In this document: positions 57,395 through 60,957 of the stretch, piece by piece
How positions within the stretch are numbered: position 1 is the stretch's first letter
Layout of the letters: each line of letters begins with the position of its first letter
From: a virus
Length of the DNA stretch: 64,000 nt
IMG/VR virus record: IMGVR_UViG_3300026521_000527
Coordinates: 1-64,000 of that record
Reading direction: 5' to 3' (one strand)
The notes under the pieces: model-generated
The model's database searches: none
What the model was told of the DNA's origin: nothing
The model's input: only the letters and a program-made list of their open reading frames with translations
Program-made: the position numbers and the translations under genes

Positions 57395-58843
57395 TTAACC
57401 AAAAAGGGAACCCATTACTTTCCCAAGCCCAGTTAAACCATCATTTTCTGATTTTTTTGCATCAACATCAGTTGCATCAGTTGCATCATATATTTCAATA
57501 GAATCTTTGTCACTTGATATCAAACATGAATTTACTTGATTGATATCATAATCAAGTGTTCTCATTACGGATCTGATCTGTGGATCAGTGTAATGTTTAT
57601 ATTTTAACGCTTTAACGAAAGCTGCAGTATCTTCAGGGGTTGCACTTCCATCCACCCCAAATTTTTTAGGATCTAGTCCCAAAATATTCAGTTGTCTTTT
57701 CGCCTGCTGTTCTTTAAAAACAGGTCGTGTTGTTTGTGACAATTGAGTAGATTCATTGATTCCATCATAGATATCATCATAACCATCATAATCATATCCA
57801 GTATATATATTCCCTTTCCCAACACCACCTGAATATCTTGATGTATAATTGTAAGTTCTAGCCTTTATAAGATTCGGATCCATTATAAGGATCGGTTCAT
57901 ACTCACTGACCGTTAAAAATTCACTCAGTACTCTTTGAAGCTGCCCTTTTACAAAATCAACATCTTGTACTGGACAGTGTTTTGATTCCAGAACTCTAAA
58001 GTCAAAAATATTTTTAGCTTCCTCATTAACACCAGATTCATTGGAATCTGGTGTTCTAAAGAACTCATCGTACATTTTGATAACGGGAACATTTTCATCA
58101 ACCTCAGCGTCTTGTACAATAAAAGTCATTGTAGGCATTTCTGTATATGTACCATCAATACCACCATCTTCAAGTAAATTTACATTAACAACTTGTGTTT
58201 CTGTAACAACTATTTTAGTTGGTGTGTTAGTGCTAGGAATATACATAACACTATCTGTTTGTATTTTATCCTCTGCTACAGCGTTTCTAAAGATCACACC
58301 AGGATTCTCTGCTTTATTATCTCTATCAATTGTACTGAATCCAAAATCACCTGGATGTCTATGAATTGAACCCATCTCAAGTTCACGGGCTTCTAGTTCG
58401 AAGCCCCTTTCGATAAACTCTTCTTTTGGAAAAGCCTCTGCAAATTTTGCAACAAGTTGATCAGAAACAGGAATCAGTTGGTTTGAGATCTCACTAACTT
58501 CATCCAATGAAAAACTTACACTTGCTGTTGTAACTTCTTGAGAGAAGTTAAAGAACACAGTAGGTATTGTAAATACCATTCTTTGTCCTGTTTCCTGATG
58601 TTTAAATATCAGCTGAAGTCCTCTATAATGGACTTGATATTCTGCACCACCAGCTGCTGGTAAACCAAGGTCACGAACTTGGTTTAAAAGTTTTTGACTA
58701 TAAAGTACAACATTTAAAGTACTATTGCTTTTTCTTGTACTCGGTGTTTTTTTAACTCCAAAATAACTACCTACTTTTTTACCTATTCCCCATTTAGCCA
58801 TATTTTTTCCTTTATTTTTTTTTGATTTTTTTCTTTTTGCCAT
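57395..58843 (-). CDS. JAB/JAMM-like metalloprotease (482 aa)
   Basis: E68 (GAEYQV) and H161-R-H163-PGDFGF-S170-TI-D173; one residue shorter than canonical HxH-x7-S-x2-D. Confidence 0.75.
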   Translation of the reverse strand: MAKRKKSKKNKGKNMAKWGIGKKVGSYFGVKKTPSTRKSNSTLNVVLYSQKLLNQVRDLGLPAAGGAEYQVHYRGLQLIFKHQETGQRMVFTIPTVFFNFSQEVTTASVSFSLDEVSEISNQLIPVSDQLVAKFAEAFPKEEFIERGFELEARELEMGSIHRHPGDFGFSTIDRDNKAENPGVIFRNAVAEDKIQTDSVMYIPSTNTPTKIVVTETQVVNVNLLEDGGIDGTYTEMPTMTFIVQDAEVDENVPVIKMYDEFFRTPDSNESGVNEEAKNIFDFRVLESKHCPVQDVDFVKGQLQRVLSEFLTVSEYEPILIMDPNLIKARTYNYTSRYSGGVGKGNIYTGYDYDGYDDIYDGINESTQLSQTTRPVFKEQQAKRQLNILGLDPKKFGVDGSATPEDTAAFVKALKYKHYTDPQIRSVMRTLDYDINQVNSCLISSDKDSIEIYDATDATDVDAKKSENDGLTGLGKVMGSLFG

Positions 58844-58863
58844 TTTTAGAATTCCTCTTTATA

Positions 58864-59946
58864 TTAATCTGCATCAGATATTTGAGGATTTCTGGCCGCA
58901 CTGTATGCACCCCAAATCTCCGCACTAAATTTTTTACAAGCCATTATATATGGATATGTGCTTTTTTTCCAAAGAATATTACCGTAAAACATACTATTTA
59001 GGTTAACATTAGAAAGAGTCAACCATCCACTTCGTGCAGCTTTATTTTCAGAGCCAGTACAAACACTACCAGCACTTCTCAAATAAGACTCATTAATATT
59101 TCCACTCATCATCGGTGAAATATTATAACCAACCTGGTTATCCTTAGTTGGTTTTTCTATATACACCAATCCATAATATGGCGTACTAACGCCATCTGAT
59201 ATCTTTTGGAGCGGGATTAGAAGAGATTCTGGTTGAATACCACTTTGACTTATTTCTCTTATATTTATTTTAAGATTAACATCGTTCACTGATGAAATCT
59301 GAGGTCGTTCGATCATATTCAACATTTGATCTTTATCAACACTCACAGATCGTTCAATAATAGATGGTGACATTATTATATTTGGTGTCAGTTGCAAAAA
59401 CTTTACCAACTCATTAAAATACTCATCAGTTTTTGATTGAAGTGTTTCTGGTGCAATAGCCTCTTTAAAATAATTAACTCCCTGAATTCCATTACGCCAT
59501 TCATATATATGGAGTTTTCCCGTTTTTGGAAGCTCTATGATATTGGCATTATACATAAATGCAATTAAAGGGTGCAGTGGATTAATATTAAAGCCATCTT
59601 CAGTTGTCAGAAGGCAACCATATACTCCTTCATTTTGAGCAAGCTGTTGCAAAAATACTCCGATATCAATTGCATCCGAATTATATTCGATCGTTGTGAT
59701 CGCATCTTTACATGTCGATCTTATTTTATCCCATGATATTTTCGAATCATCATCCACTAATGAAAAAGATGGTAATGTATCACTAGTTATTGATGGTCTA
59801 ATATTCAACGGGATAAAAATATCTCCTTCTTGATTTAGCATCTGATTTCCCTCTTGCACTTCATCTGAAGTATATTTATTGATTGCATCCTGTGTGGACA
59901 TAATCAAAGAATGTGCTAAAATGGTTGTAGGTTGATTAAATTTCAT
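58864..59946 (-). CDS. prokaryotic E2-like (UBC-fold) protein (360 aa)
   Basis: SPMMSGNIN..GSVC296TG..LSNVN matches the P..N..G.(V/I)C.G pattern of prokaryotic E2s; lies between E1 and JAB. Confidence 0.6.
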   Translation of the reverse strand: MKFNQPTTILAHSLIMSTQDAINKYTSDEVQEGNQMLNQEGDIFIPLNIRPSITSDTLPSFSLVDDDSKISWDKIRSTCKDAITTIEYNSDAIDIGVFLQQLAQNEGVYGCLLTTEDGFNINPLHPLIAFMYNANIIELPKTGKLHIYEWRNGIQGVNYFKEAIAPETLQSKTDEYFNELVKFLQLTPNIIMSPSIIERSVSVDKDQMLNMIERPQISSVNDVNLKINIREISQSGIQPESLLIPLQKISDGVSTPYYGLVYIEKPTKDNQVGYNISPMMSGNINESYLRSAGSVCTGSENKAARSGWLTLSNVNLNSMFYGNILWKKSTYPYIMACKKFSAEIWGAYSAARNPQISDAD

Positions 59947-59955
59947 ATTTTCTCC

Positions 59956-60957
59956 TTATCCTAAAATATCCCACTCATCTTGAGTGCTCAGTTCAACAGC
60001 GTCTGGGTTAGCTTCTAAGTACTCAGCCATATTGAAAGTAAATATGTCAGAGTCATGTTCATAATCCTCACCTGTTCTTATCCTATTTGCCTCTTTTTTA
60101 ATCCAAGCAGCTGTTGCAACTTGAAAATTTAAAAGTAATACTGGGATATCGATACTCCCATAAGTTTCATTACCTAACTCGGTATTAACTACCGGCTGAT
60201 ATGTTAAATCAACTGATGTTCCTCCATGCCCAAAGAACATAAAATTCTTATCTTCAAGAAGCTTTCTGGTCTCAAAATCAGGTGCACCAATCATATTGTA
60301 TCCATTTTGAGCAAATAGATCAATTGCTTTTTGATCAACATACTCATTTTTATTCATTGGGCTAATGTCCTCAACCAACCATTTAAGATTTTTGGTGAGC
60401 ACTAATTTATATATACCACCGATCTCATCATCAATATCCCTAACCGTACTAGCACTTGTCTCCATCACAATATCTTCTCCAATTCGTGGGATATTTGTGA
60501 ACTCCAAGAAGTCCGCCTCCCTAACATGCATTCTATGGAAGATGCCTGGCACTTCTAATTTCATGCACCAGTATTGCAAGTTATAGAAGAAGTTAATCAT
60601 TGCACCGCCCATACCGATAGACAATATTTTATATTTGCTATCTTTTATGACTTTTAAATCATCTCTTGTTGGGACAATATCTAAATCTCTTATAATCTTC
60701 CAAAGCAACTTGTTATTGAAATGTCTAGGATATTTTCCATAGTCCTTTTTAATCTTTAAAAATAATCTAGCTTCCAATTTAGCTAAATTTGGATTCATGA
60801 TATTGAATCCAGATATATCCTGGAATGAGAAATTTTGCGGGTTTGCGTAATAATCAATGACAATTTTATTGTCATCAAACGGTAGAATTGAATTCGGTTT
60901 GTATCTCATTCTGAGATTCTCTTGAATCTCATTTTTAAGATTTATATCTGTGCTCAT
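59956..60957 (-). CDS. ThiF/MoeB/E1-like adenylating enzyme (333 aa)
   Basis: KILSIGMGGAM (P-loop variant), EADFLEFTNIPR (D.D.VE.SNL.R motif), IGAPDFETR (D.VD..AR motif). Confidence 0.8.
   Translation of the reverse strand: MSTDINLKNEIQENLRMRYKPNSILPFDDNKIVIDYYANPQNFSFQDISGFNIMNPNLAKLEARLFLKIKKDYGKYPRHFNNKLLWKIIRDLDIVPTRDDLKVIKDSKYKILSIGMGGAMINFFYNLQYWCMKLEVPGIFHRMHVREADFLEFTNIPRIGEDIVMETSASTVRDIDDEIGGIYKLVLTKNLKWLVEDISPMNKNEYVDQKAIDLFAQNGYNMIGAPDFETRKLLEDKNFMFFGHGGTSVDLTYQPVVNTELGNETYGSIDIPVLLLNFQVATAAWIKKEANRIRTGEDYEHDSDIFTFNMAEYLEANPDAVELSTQDEWDILG

What the first reader, a model, noticed from the sequence alone, without database searches (positions are those of the whole stretch)
57395..60957. 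Phage-encoded E1-E2-JAB ubiquitin-like conjugation cassette with no conventional Ubl gene
Three adjacent co-oriented genes carry ThiF/E1 motifs (IGMGG at aa 114-118, DFLEFTNIPR, GAPDFETR), an E2-like catalytic motif (GNI..GSVC296TG) and a JAMM motif (E68; H161-x-H163..S170..D173). Established: E1/E2/JAB triads occur in bacterial systems such as CBASS Cap2/Cap3, Bil and PRTRC, mostly in defence or alongside a Ubl. Here the triad is in a lytic-type jumbo phage next to topoisomerase and SbcCD, and no flanking ORF looks like a beta-grasp protein ending in GG. The E1 has a single Cys (C131) and no Zn CxxC pairs, so it may transfer the adenylate directly to the E2. Inference: a phage protein-conjugation system, perhaps for counter-defence or host takeover, that uses a non-canonical modifier.
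Basis: partly seen in the sequence, partly recalled or inferred. Interest (0 to 1): 0.85.

Follow-up and report, generated by a model that had tools for sequence, protein, structure and literature searches.

The report
Phage E1-like peptide-tagging gene cassette
A large uncultured phage carries a conserved gene set (a tiny glycine-ended peptide, a ubiquitin-activating-type (E1) enzyme, a cysteine protein of an unknown family and a probable metal protease) that looks like a ubiquitin-style tagging system using a short peptide instead of a ubiquitin fold; only the E1 fold is actually shown.

Summary

- **E1 (59956-60957):** the E1/ThiF fold is shown (Foldseek prob 1.0; VIA Z 11.7; hhalign 83% against genuine ThiF). 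It lacks the Mg-binding Asp and any conserved Cys.
- **"E2" (58864-59946):** this protein founds an unannotated, apparently phage-restricted family of about 300 clusters. Asn283 and Cys296 are invariant, but the UBC fold is not shown (best Z 2.7).
- **"JAB" (57395-58843):** it carries an invariant E...HxH...S..D motif (70 of 70 relatives), but no profile or fold support was obtained.
a 15-codon ORF with a ribosome-binding site lies directly upstream of the E1 gene (61085-61132). It has counterparts in 11 related loci, with a shared aromatic-Asp-Gly core followed by an acidic tail.
- **More distant relatives:** the same slot holds 38-60-aa proteins ending ...KSG plus a 1-4-residue cap. In one lineage this is a tandem four-unit precursor built like polyubiquitin. 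The window's own genome has one such gene 56 kb away.

Best reading (about 0.45): a phage peptide-tag activation and transfer system. Rivals are a RiPP-like pathway, a sulfur carrier, or non-catalytic proteins.

The parts
61085..61132 (-). 15-codon peptide ORF (MEVIVGGGDNDFDLM plus stop): candidate precursor of the activated peptide. Its proposed parts are a short hydrophobic segment, Gly, and an acidic cap.
   Evidence: An AGGAG ribosome-binding site lies 5 nt upstream. The DNA is 100% identical in the 87%-identical relative L006, while the flanking hairpin has diverged. Counterparts sit in the same slot in 11 further loci, with a shared aromatic-[DE]-G-x-D-x-D-D core.
61052..61071 (-). GC-rich hairpin (8-bp stem, AGAG loop) just after the peptide ORF, with a T-run about 22 nt further on. 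It may be an attenuator or an RNA-stability element.
   Evidence: Read from the sequence. Folding gives a centroid of -15.4 kcal/mol and z -1.8. L006 has a different sequence at this place that also folds. The terminator scan did not call it, and it is absent in L001.
59956..60957 (-). E1/ThiF-like adenylating-enzyme homologue (333 aa, P0001), with an N-terminal helical region of about 100 aa.
   Evidence: AlphaFold2 model: pLDDT 88.8, pTM 0.90. Foldseek top hits are ThiF, AclA, PaaA, UBA5, Cap2, MccB and MoeB, with prob 1.0 and E down to 9e-6. In VIA all 50 top rows are E1-type, best Z 11.7 with 245 residues aligned to BilD 8tz0_B. hhalign against 17 genuine ThiF/MoeB sequences gives prob 83%, E 8.9e-6.
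58864..59946 (-). Cys-protein of an unannotated family (360 aa, P0002): candidate carrier or transferase, possibly E2-like. N283 and C296 are invariant, and NPLHP (122-126) is conserved.
   Evidence: It lies next to the E1-like gene in every locus long enough to show both genes. About 300 cluster representatives reach E<=1e-3. Invariant residues are listed. There is no Pfam, PHROGs, NCBIfam or PDB sequence match. The model has pLDDT 78 and no significant fold match. UEV1a and UBE2A are the best second-look rows at Z 2.7 and 2.3.
57395..58843 (-). Putative JAMM/JAB-type metallopeptidase (482 aa, P0003). It has a Lys-rich N-terminus, a conserved core of about residues 40-250, and a variable C-terminal half.
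   Evidence: E68, H161, H163, S170 and D173 are invariant in 50 relatives, and the motif is found in 70/70 family members against 0/195 controls. hhalign against 29 Prok-JAB sequences places motif on motif, with P 0.006 but probability only 6%. It follows the E1 and Cys-protein genes in the same order in lineages only 24-28% identical.
57360..57386 (.). Strong palindromic hairpin (12-bp stem, 8 GC pairs) directly after the stop of the third gene. It is the likely end of the transcription unit.
   Evidence: Terminator scan.

Best explanation
Proposed function: the locus is a four-part phage cassette that activates a short ribosomal peptide at a C-terminal glycine and passes it on.

Proposed steps (the E1 fold is shown; all steps are inferred):
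1. The small ORF upstream of the E1 gene, or the ...KSG-type protein encoded elsewhere in the same genome, is made as a capped precursor.
2. The JAMM-like protein (P0003) removes the acidic or short cap, or cuts tandem units apart, exposing a C-terminal Gly.
3. The E1-like protein (P0001) adenylates that Gly. It has no conserved Cys, so it forms no E1 thioester.
4. The invariant Cys296 of P0002 attacks the adenylate and carries the peptide as a thioester, with invariant Asn283 playing the part of the E2 'HPN' Asn.
5. The peptide is transferred to an amine on an unknown target.

The modifier is therefore a short peptide or disordered protein of 8-57 aa, not a beta-grasp protein. The target and the benefit to the phage are unknown. 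The position among topoisomerase II, SbcCD and RecJ genes suggests a link to DNA replication or repair, or to host takeover.
For: - **E1 fold and nucleotide-site residues.** Foldseek prob 1.0; VIA Z 11.7. hhalign 83% maps G-x-G-G onto the Gly loop, E147-x-D149...N155...R158 onto DxDxVxxSNLxRQ, K184 onto the Lys, and R231 onto the Arg.
- **No conserved Cys in the E1 family**. The solved BubCD E1 shares this feature (PMC11601596).
- **P0002 always accompanies the E1 gene**, and N283 and C296 are invariant across 80 members that are 17-36% identical.
- **The secondary-structure order around the Cys matches the UBC core order** (this comparison is inference): helix, four strands, loop with Asn, Cys, then helices. 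UEV/UBC chains are the best rows in the second look, but weakly.
- **The invariant JAMM-type motif**.
- **A small ORF sits in the slot before the E1 gene in every lineage examined.**
  - Twelve peptides (eleven with a shared phi-Y/W-[DE]-G plus acidic tail) form alignment A8. One of them (L020/L021) instead lies just after the second E1+Cys-protein pair and ends exactly on that Gly with no tail.
  - Six or more lineages have proteins with an N-terminal helix, a low-complexity linker and ...KSG plus a 1-4-residue cap.
  - In L017/L005 this is 4.1 tandem 171-nt units, each ending AKSG, with a final Lys cap. That is the layout of polyubiquitin.
  - In L013 an ...AKSG segment is fused directly in front of the P0002 homologue's normal start. 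BubAB is a comparable Ubl-E2 fusion that is cut by the JAB domain.
- **The window's own genome holds a 60-aa ...RAKSG+F gene** with a ribosome-binding site at 117489-117671.
- **Gene order E1, Cys-protein, JAMM-like is kept in phages only 24-28% identical**.
- **Only 1 hit in 185,579 species genomes**, on a 4-kb MAG contig.
Against: - No enzymatic step is shown.
- The Mg-binding Asp of active E1s aligns with a hydrophobic residue, and the second Asp aligns with Pro ('IGAP' against 'DxTDN'). The protein could therefore be inactive or use another metal site.
- P0002 has no significant fold or profile match to any E2, and the model is of low confidence around Cys296 (pLDDT 51-55).
- P0003 has no Pfam JAB hit in any of 50 members and no PDB profile hit. 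Its His-to-Ser spacing is one residue shorter than the classic motif.
- The peptides are short and low in complexity. The two peptide types (aromatic-Asp-Gly and KSG) are not demonstrably homologous.
- The conserved Gly is missing at the aligned place in L003.
- In group-B phages the JAMM-like gene lies about 250 kb from the tag, E1 and Cys-protein genes, between topoisomerase II and SbcD. It may therefore have a role of its own.
- The complete 281-kb relative G002 has no KSG-type gene that my pattern scan could find.
Confidence: 0.45

Rival explanations
1. A RiPP-like pathway. The small ORF is the precursor of a modified peptide product, and the E1-like enzyme modifies the peptide itself as MccB or PaaA do. 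The Cys-protein and the JAMM-like protein would act as tailoring or leader-removing enzymes, and there would be no protein conjugation.
For: - Peptide-modifying E1-like enzymes (AclA, PaaA, MccB) are among the best fold matches.
- A short peptide gene lies directly before the E1-like gene.
- A hairpin follows the peptide ORF in the window. From my own knowledge, mccA-mccB has a comparable arrangement.
- Multi-core tandem precursors are also typical of some RiPPs (own knowledge).
Against: - None of the peptides ends in Asn (as MccA does) or carries a Glu-Glu-Asn site (as PaaP does).
- No export or immunity gene was seen in the conserved neighbourhood.
- The peptides differ greatly in length and sequence between lineages, while a Gly followed by a cap is kept in nearly all of them. 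That pattern fits a handle for activation better than a bioactive core.
- Nothing explains why a lytic-type phage would make an exported peptide from within its replication module.
Confidence: 0.2
2. A sulfur-carrier pathway of the ThiS/MoaD/QbsE/CysO type. The Gly-ended peptide would be uncapped by the JAMM-like peptidase and adenylated by the E1-like enzyme. It would then be converted to a thiocarboxylate using a persulfide on Cys296 of P0002, feeding a thio-modification of a nucleotide or cofactor.
For: - An E1-like enzyme without a catalytic Cys, plus a JAB-type peptidase, plus a capped Gly-ended carrier is the layout of QbsCDE and CysO/Mec+ (own knowledge; Iyer et al. 2006, PMC1779556, listed).
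- QueC-like and queuosine-salvage-like genes lie near the tag genes.
- ThiF and MoeB are among the top fold matches.
Against: - Sulfur carriers are recycled, so a tandem four-unit precursor is hard to explain.
- All known carriers are beta-grasp proteins, and these peptides are too short for that fold.
- No cysteine desulfurase, rhodanese or sulfur-acceptor enzyme is conserved in the neighbourhood.
Confidence: 0.1
3. The three proteins are not a conjugation machine. The E1-like protein would be a non-catalytic scaffold because its Mg-binding Asp is lost. All three, with the acidic peptide (an SSB-tail-like acidic/hydrophobic end), would be accessory parts of the phage replication and recombination apparatus.
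For: - Loss of the DxxDN acidic residues.
- The fixed position between topoisomerase II and SbcCD in several lineages.
- In group-B phages the JAMM-like gene stays in that position even though the E1 and Cys-protein genes lie elsewhere.
- The acidic tails with hydrophobic ends of the group-A peptides recall the SSB C-terminal tip (own knowledge).
Against: - The other nucleotide-contacting residues (Gly loop, Asp149, Asn155, Arg158, Lys184, Arg231) are invariant. A mere scaffold would not need them.
- An invariant Cys/Asn pair and an invariant metal-site motif indicate catalysis.
- The distant triads L093-L095 are not next to topoisomerase or SbcCD.
Confidence: 0.15

Closest known systems
Type I Bub (6E.1) operons: BubAB (Ubl-E2 fusion), BubCD (JAB-E1 fusion), BubE (PMC11601596)
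   Same: - The E1 has no catalytic Cys in the crossover loop.
- A JAB-type peptidase matures the modifier.
- The modifier can be fused in front of the E2-position protein (L013 here).
- The BubCD E1 domain is among the structural matches of P0001 (9eav_A, Z 10.4).
   Different: - Bub modifiers are beta-grasp proteins, and Bub works through oxyesters on Ser.
- Bub operons are bacterial and associated with defence regulators.
- Here the candidate modifiers are peptides or disordered proteins of 8-57 aa, and the carrier residue would be a Cys.
- The genes are separate, and the family is found in phages only.
- No DUF6527 (BubE) protein was seen.
Bil operons (BilA Ubl, BilB E2, BilC JAB, BilD E1)
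   Same: The same functional set of modifier, E1, E2-position protein and JAB-type peptidase. BilD is the single best structural match of P0001 (8tz0_B: Z 11.7, 245 residues, rmsd 4.4).
   Different: - BilD has tandem adenylation domains and a catalytic Cys domain.
- BilA is a double beta-grasp protein.
- Bil defends bacteria against phages.
- P0002 and P0003 show no detectable sequence relation to BilB or BilC.
CBASS Cap2 (E2-E1 fusion) and Cap3 (JAB)
   Same: The E1-like domain matches (7tsq: Foldseek E 4.5e-5; VIA Z 11.0). The activated C-terminus is not a beta-grasp protein but the tail of another protein (CD-NTase), which is a precedent for a non-Ubl substrate.
   Different: - Cap2 has catalytic Cys residues in both the E1 and E2 domains, and it is a host defence component.
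- hhalign of the P0002 family against three Cap2 proteins found nothing in the E2 domain.
Sulfur-carrier systems QbsC/D/E and CysO/MoeZ/Mec+
   Same: An E1-like enzyme, a JAB peptidase that trims residues after the carrier's C-terminal Gly, and no classical E2.
   Different: The carriers are beta-grasp proteins that are reused. There is no tandem precursor, and no partner resembling P0002.
MccA/MccB and PaaP/PaaA (E1-like enzymes acting on short ribosomal peptides)
   Same: A very short peptide gene lies directly upstream of an E1-like gene. These enzymes are among the fold matches.
   Different: The required C-terminal Asn or Glu-Glu-Asn is absent. There are no export or immunity genes, and those systems have no Cys-protein or JAMM-like partners.

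Membership tests
E1/ThiF-like adenylating enzymes | Rossmann-type E1 adenylation fold | tested here: met
   Foldseek prob 1.0, E 9e-6 to ThiF 1zfn. In VIA all 50 top rows are E1-type with Z 10.2-11.7. hhalign against 17 genuine ThiF/MoeB sequences gives 83%, E 8.9e-6, while control profiles give P about 0.4.
E1/ThiF-like adenylating enzymes | Gly-rich nucleotide loop and the DxDxVxxSNLxRQ, Lys and Arg residues that hold ATP | tested here: met
   G115-x-G117-G118, E147-x-D149, N155, R158, K184 and R231 are invariant or nearly so and align to the ThiF positions. The last Gly of GxGGxG is replaced by Met.
E1/ThiF-like adenylating enzymes | Mg-binding Asp of the DxxDN motif (MoeB Asp130 equivalent) | tested here: not met
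   'vvDgTDNF.tR' aligns with 'fIGAPxfETR'. The first Asp becomes a hydrophobic residue and the second becomes Pro, and this holds throughout the family.
E1/ThiF-like adenylating enzymes | Match to the Pfam ThiF model (PF00899) | tested here: not met
   No Pfam hit at E<=1. The six-frame search of the whole record with PF00899 found nothing.
Canonical ubiquitin-type E1 | Catalytic Cys in or inserted into the crossover loop | tested here: not met
   C131 is the only Cys and is not conserved. There is no invariant Cys among 34 relatives.
E2 / UBC superfamily | UBC fold | tested here: inconclusive
   Whole-protein model with pLDDT 78. Foldseek finds nothing at E<=0.001. The wide VIA search gives a best Z of 4.3, with no UBC chain among the 50 rows shown. 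In the second look, UEV1a 2c2v_C scores Z 2.7 (103 aa, rmsd 4.7), UBE2A Z 2.3 (99 aa) and UEV1 Z 2.2 (100 aa).
E2 / UBC superfamily | Invariant catalytic Cys preceded by the Asn of an HPN-type loop | tested here: inconclusive
   N283 and C296 are invariant in 80 members, but His-Pro is absent and the spacing is 13 residues or more, against 7-10 in E2s. This is a resemblance of pattern only.
E2 / UBC superfamily | Sequence or profile similarity to known E2 families | tested here: not met
   No Pfam hit in 80 members. No PDB profile hit. hhalign against three Cap2 proteins gives P 0.1-0.7, and the alignment does not fall in the E2 domain.
JAB/JAMM (MPN+) metallopeptidases | E ... HxH x7 S xx D metal and catalytic motif | tested here: met
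   E68, H161, H163, S170 and D173 are invariant. The motif is found in 70/70 members against 0/195 controls. The spacing between the second His and Ser is 6 residues, not 7.
JAB/JAMM (MPN+) metallopeptidases | Profile similarity to JAB families | tested here: inconclusive
   No Pfam JAB hit in 50 members even at E<=10. No PDB profile hit. hhalign against 29 Prok-JAB sequences gives P 0.006 and probability 6%, with motif aligned on motif, while controls give P 0.2-0.4.
JAB/JAMM (MPN+) metallopeptidases | MPN fold | not tested
Ubiquitin-like (beta-grasp) modifiers | Beta-grasp domain of about 70-100 aa | tested here: not met
   The candidate modifiers are 15-60 aa, largely low in complexity, or peptides of about 8-25 aa once the cap is removed. 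No ORF of 50-220 aa with GG near its end exists in the record.
Ubiquitin-like (beta-grasp) modifiers | C-terminal Gly exposed by removal of a cap, or by cutting a head-to-tail poly-precursor | tested here: inconclusive
   The sequence layout fits...KSG plus 1-4 residues in 7 lineages, 4.1 tandem units in L017 and L005, and one peptide ending exactly on the Gly. Cleavage itself is not shown.
MccB/PaaA-type RiPP systems | Precursor with C-terminal Asn (MccA) or a Glu-Glu-Asn site (PaaP), plus export and immunity genes | tested here: not met
   The peptide ends are M, I, Y, T, N, S, C or G, and there is no EEN site. No transporter was found among the neighbours.

The most novel reading that the evidence does not exclude
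Large phages encode a previously undescribed class of ubiquitin-style modifier that is not a beta-grasp protein. It would be a Gly-ended peptide or disordered mini-protein of 8-57 aa, made with a removable cap or as a polyubiquitin-like tandem precursor. A Cys-less E1-like enzyme would activate it, and a new E2-position Cys-protein family would transfer it to phage or host proteins during infection.
Probability: 0.35. Interest if true: 0.9.

Novelty: new variant of a known kind. Interest (0 to 1): 0.75.

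Why it matters
Bacterial E1/E2/JAB systems (CBASS Cap2/Cap3, Bil, Bub) are so far known as host defences that use beta-grasp modifiers or a protein tail. A phage-borne relative, found in only one of 185,579 species genomes scanned, would place this chemistry on the virus side of the conflict. 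The apparent modifier here is a short peptide made as a capped or tandem precursor. If that is right, E1-type activation and Cys-carrier transfer do not need a ubiquitin fold. That bears on how ubiquitin-like signalling evolved, and it would provide a very small genetically encoded tag with its own ligation enzymes. It also gives names and testable roles to three sizeable families of phage 'hypothetical proteins'.

Tried and rejected
**Searches that found nothing**
- Pfam, PHROGs and NCBIfam scans of the three proteins gave nothing beyond one chance-level NCBIfam hit (hisZ, E 0.022).
- Pfam scans of every member of the JAMM-like family (50 members) and of the Cys-protein family (80 members) found only scattered single hits.
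- blastn and tblastn against 50,697 deposited phage genomes found no match.
- The ESM Atlas gave no usable hit and holds no model.
- Earlier findings of this scan: none.
- PDB profile searches with all three families:
  - For the E1-like family, only chance-level hits to FtsZ glycine loops.
  - For the other two families, no hits or only chance-level ones.
- hhalign of the Cys-protein family against three Cap2 E2-E1 fusions gave no signal. Only 3 Prok-E2_B proteins turned up in 201 genomes, so no good E2 reference profile could be built.
- Foldseek against viral predicted structures found only one uncharacterised family member.
- A search for a conventional Ubl (any 50-220-aa ORF with GG near its end) found none in the 136.9-kb record, which is only about half of the genome.
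- A pattern scan of the complete 281-kb relative G002 for a KSG-type tag found nothing credible.
- A protein search with the 60-aa tag was too insensitive to be useful. It missed even the known tandem tag in G001.

**Test that could not be run**
- Complex prediction (E1-like protein with its upstream peptide) was closed, so the binding test was not run.

**Ideas considered and dropped**
- The 396-aa and 437-aa proteins next to the distant tag gene are divergent E1 or Cys-protein copies: hhalign gives P 0.05-0.7.
- The E1-like protein is an FtsZ/tubulin relative: the fold search is unambiguous for E1.
- The hairpin after the peptide ORF is a classic terminator: the T-run is too far from the stem, and the scanner did not call it.

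**Literature**
- Literature searches found no report of such a phage cassette in the held library.

Full report
**What is at the coordinates**

The window is the first 64 kb of a 136,864-bp viral record with an estimated completeness of 49%. The region 57395-60957 holds three tightly packed minus-strand ORFs:
- P0001, 333 aa, at 59956-60957.
- P0002, 360 aa, at 58864-59946.
- P0003, 482 aa, at 57395-58843.

The neighbours are the topoisomerase II subunits upstream and SbcD- and SbcC-like genes downstream, with a phosphoribosyltransferase beyond them. These assignments rest on my reading of the translations and on precomputed Pfam hits for the syntenic relatives.

A strong hairpin at 57360-57386 closes the unit.

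**No off-the-shelf annotation**

- Pfam, PHROGs and NCBIfam give essentially nothing for the three proteins.
- Deposited phage genomes hold no relative.
- The big metagenome protein collection holds 28, 14 and 70 relatives respectively, all unnamed. Several sit on contigs of 200-290 kb.
- An exhaustive profile search shows that the P0002 family has about 300 cluster representatives.
- Among 185,579 bacterial and archaeal species genomes, a pattern scan with the E1-like family found one hit, on a 4-kb MAG contig.

These are therefore phage genes, not a host defence island.

**The first protein is an E1/ThiF-type enzyme, with two oddities**

The model is confident (pLDDT 88.8, pTM 0.90).
- Foldseek returns only E1-like adenylating enzymes at probability 1.0: ThiF, AclA, PaaA, UBA5, Cap2, MccB and MoeB.
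- In VIA-align all 50 top rows are E1-type. The best is the bacterial BilD E1, at Z 11.7 with 245 aligned residues.
- I built a reference profile from 17 genuine ThiF/MoeB proteins fetched from genomes. hhalign gives 83% probability and E 8.9e-6, against P about 0.4 for control profiles.

That alignment maps the invariant residues (G115/G117/G118, D149, N155, R158, K184, R231) onto the ATP-binding positions.

The two oddities:
- The Mg-binding Asp of the DxxDN motif aligns with a hydrophobic residue and the second Asp aligns with Pro, throughout the family.
- No Cys is conserved. The lone C131 varies.

A Cys-less E1 has a solved precedent in BubCD (PMC11601596). Loss of the Asp leaves activity uncertain.

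**The second protein: invariant Cys, fold unresolved**

- Across 80 members at 17-36% identity, the invariant residues (besides the start Met) are G110, N122, P256, N283 and C296. H125, P126, G259, G298, N315 and S318 are nearly invariant.
- The model (pLDDT 78) has no significant match by Foldseek or by an exhaustive VIA search (best Z 4.3).
- In the second look at Foldseek's candidates, the best rows are UEV1a (Z 2.7, 103 aa), UBE2A (Z 2.3, 99 aa) and UEV1 (Z 2.2, 100 aa). This is suggestive but far below significance.
- The DSSP order around the Cys is helix, four strands, a loop with N283, C296, then helices. That is the order of a UBC core, but this comparison is inference.
- Profile comparisons with Pfam, the PDB and three Cap2 proteins are negative.

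**The third protein: motif yes, homology not shown**

- E68, H161, H163, S170 and D173 are invariant in 50 relatives.
- The pattern is present in 70/70 family members and 0/195 other proteins.
- No member hits a Pfam JAB model, and no PDB chain is hit.
- Against a profile of 29 Prok-JAB proteins, hhalign aligns motif on motif with P 0.006 but a probability of only 6%.

**The missed component**

Synteny in two distant relatives shows a 31-aa and a 39-aa ORF squeezed between the upstream gene and the E1 gene. The window has a 15-codon ORF with an AGGAG site at 61085-61132.

- This ORF's DNA is identical in the 87%-identical relative L006, whereas the hairpin that follows it has changed sequence but still folds.
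- Twelve such peptides align on a core of hydrophobic-Tyr/Trp-[Asp/Glu]-Gly followed by an Asp-rich stretch and a short hydrophobic end (alignment A8).
- In L020/L021 the peptide stops exactly on that Gly. This suggests that the acidic part is a removable cap.

**A second, clearer kind of tag in more distant lineages**

In lineages where the E1-like protein is about 30% identical, the slot before the E1 gene holds proteins built from three parts: an N-terminal amphipathic helix, a Ser/Thr/Gly-rich linker, and a C-terminus ...KSG followed by 1-4 residues.

- In L017 and L005 the gene is 4.1 tandem repeats of 171 nt. Each unit ends AKSG, and a single Lys follows the last unit.
- In L015 there is a leader ending AKSG, one unit, and a three-residue cap.
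- In L013 a segment ending AKSG is fused directly before the normal start of the P0002 homologue.
- Three further IMG/VR phages (L093-L095) keep the order small ...SG+cap ORF, E1-like, P0002-like, P0003-like. Their P0002 homologues are only 24-28% identical to the window's.
- The window's own genome has a 60-aa member (...RAKSG+F) with a ribosome-binding site at 117489-117671, next to a RecJ-like gene.

Head-to-tail units, a C-terminal Gly and a cap are the hallmarks of ubiquitin-type precursors. A Ubl fused to the E2 and released by the JAB domain is known from BubAB/BubCD.

**How the parts travel together**

- The E1-like and P0002-like genes are adjacent in every locus long enough to show both.
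- The P0003-like gene follows them in most lineages.
- In L020/L021 it sits between two E1+P0002 pairs.
- In the 281-kb group-B phage it lies between topoisomerase II and SbcD, while the tag, E1 and P0002 genes are about 250 kb away.

All four components are thus present in that one fully checked group-B phage as well, though the peptidase-like protein may also have an independent role.

**Interpretation**

The best-supported reading is a peptide-tag activation and transfer system, as set out in the best explanation (confidence 0.45). The E1 fold, the conservation patterns and the gene linkage are shown. Every chemical step is inferred.

The main rivals are:
- a RiPP-like peptide maturation pathway (0.2);
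- a non-catalytic role in replication or recombination (0.15);
- a sulfur-carrier pathway (0.1).

**Novelty**

E1/E2/JAB triads are a known kind (Iyer et al. 2006, PMC1779556; Bil, Bub, CBASS). What is new here:
- the phage-only distribution;
- the apparent non-beta-grasp, peptide-sized modifiers with polyubiquitin-like precursors;
- an E1-like family lacking both the catalytic Cys and the Mg-binding Asp;
- two unannotated partner families.

I found no report of it in the held literature. I therefore rate it a new variant of a known kind, with a substantial chance of being more than that.

Noticed in passing
outside the window: G000:C1:117489-117671 (-), = L098:7490-7672: A 60-aa gene of the ...KSG-type tag family (Ala/Gly/Ser-rich, ending RAKSG+F) with an AAAGGA ribosome-binding site. 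It lies between a RecJ-like exonuclease gene and two paralogous unknown genes (396 and 437 aa, 30% identical), with a QueC-like gene 5.5 kb away.
   Followed up: partly
L017:5992-7047, L019:602-1636, L014, L016 (E1-like) and L017:7159-8298, L019:1730-2851 (P0002-like): In the group-B phages the E1-like proteins (four loci) and the P0002-like proteins (two seen) end in acidic tails with a terminal Trp (...PDW, ...SDW, ...GEW, ...GAW). This could be a shared docking motif.
   Followed up: no
L093:8072-8821 and L095:8462-9205: The gene right after the distant triads (247-249 aa) begins with a reverse-transcriptase-like motif (…GGYRRI.APD…). It was read by eye only.
   Followed up: no
L020:4402-10010 and L021: Two E1-like + P0002-like pairs flank a single P0003-like gene. 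An 18-aa ORF ending exactly on ...IYG follows the second pair, and it is identical in both loci.
   Followed up: partly
L096:8001-10112 (contig Ga0256836_1000002, 281 kb): A 703-aa P0003 homologue sits between topoisomerase II and SbcD with no E1 or P0002 genes beside it. A QueC gene and a ClpB-like AAA+ gene lie just downstream.
   Followed up: partly
window 61052-61071 (-): A GC-rich hairpin right after the 15-codon ORF. The close relative L006 has a different sequence there that also folds, whereas L001 has only 9 nt between the peptide ORF and the E1 gene.
   Followed up: partly
window 52422-53222 (-): A 266-aa ORF with a hydrophobic, signal-peptide-like N-terminus. It reads like a secreted non-specific DNA/RNA endonuclease (by eye only).
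   Followed up: no
window 57395-58843 (-), residues 1-40 and 260-482: P0003 has a Lys-rich N-terminus (about 12 of its first 32 residues are Lys or Arg). Its C-terminal half is poorly conserved and expands to give 600-700-aa forms in other phages.
   Followed up: no
L017:3578-4510: A queuosine-salvage-like gene (Pfam Q_salvage, E 2.4e-5, just below the cut-off) lies two genes upstream of the tandem tag gene.
   Followed up: no
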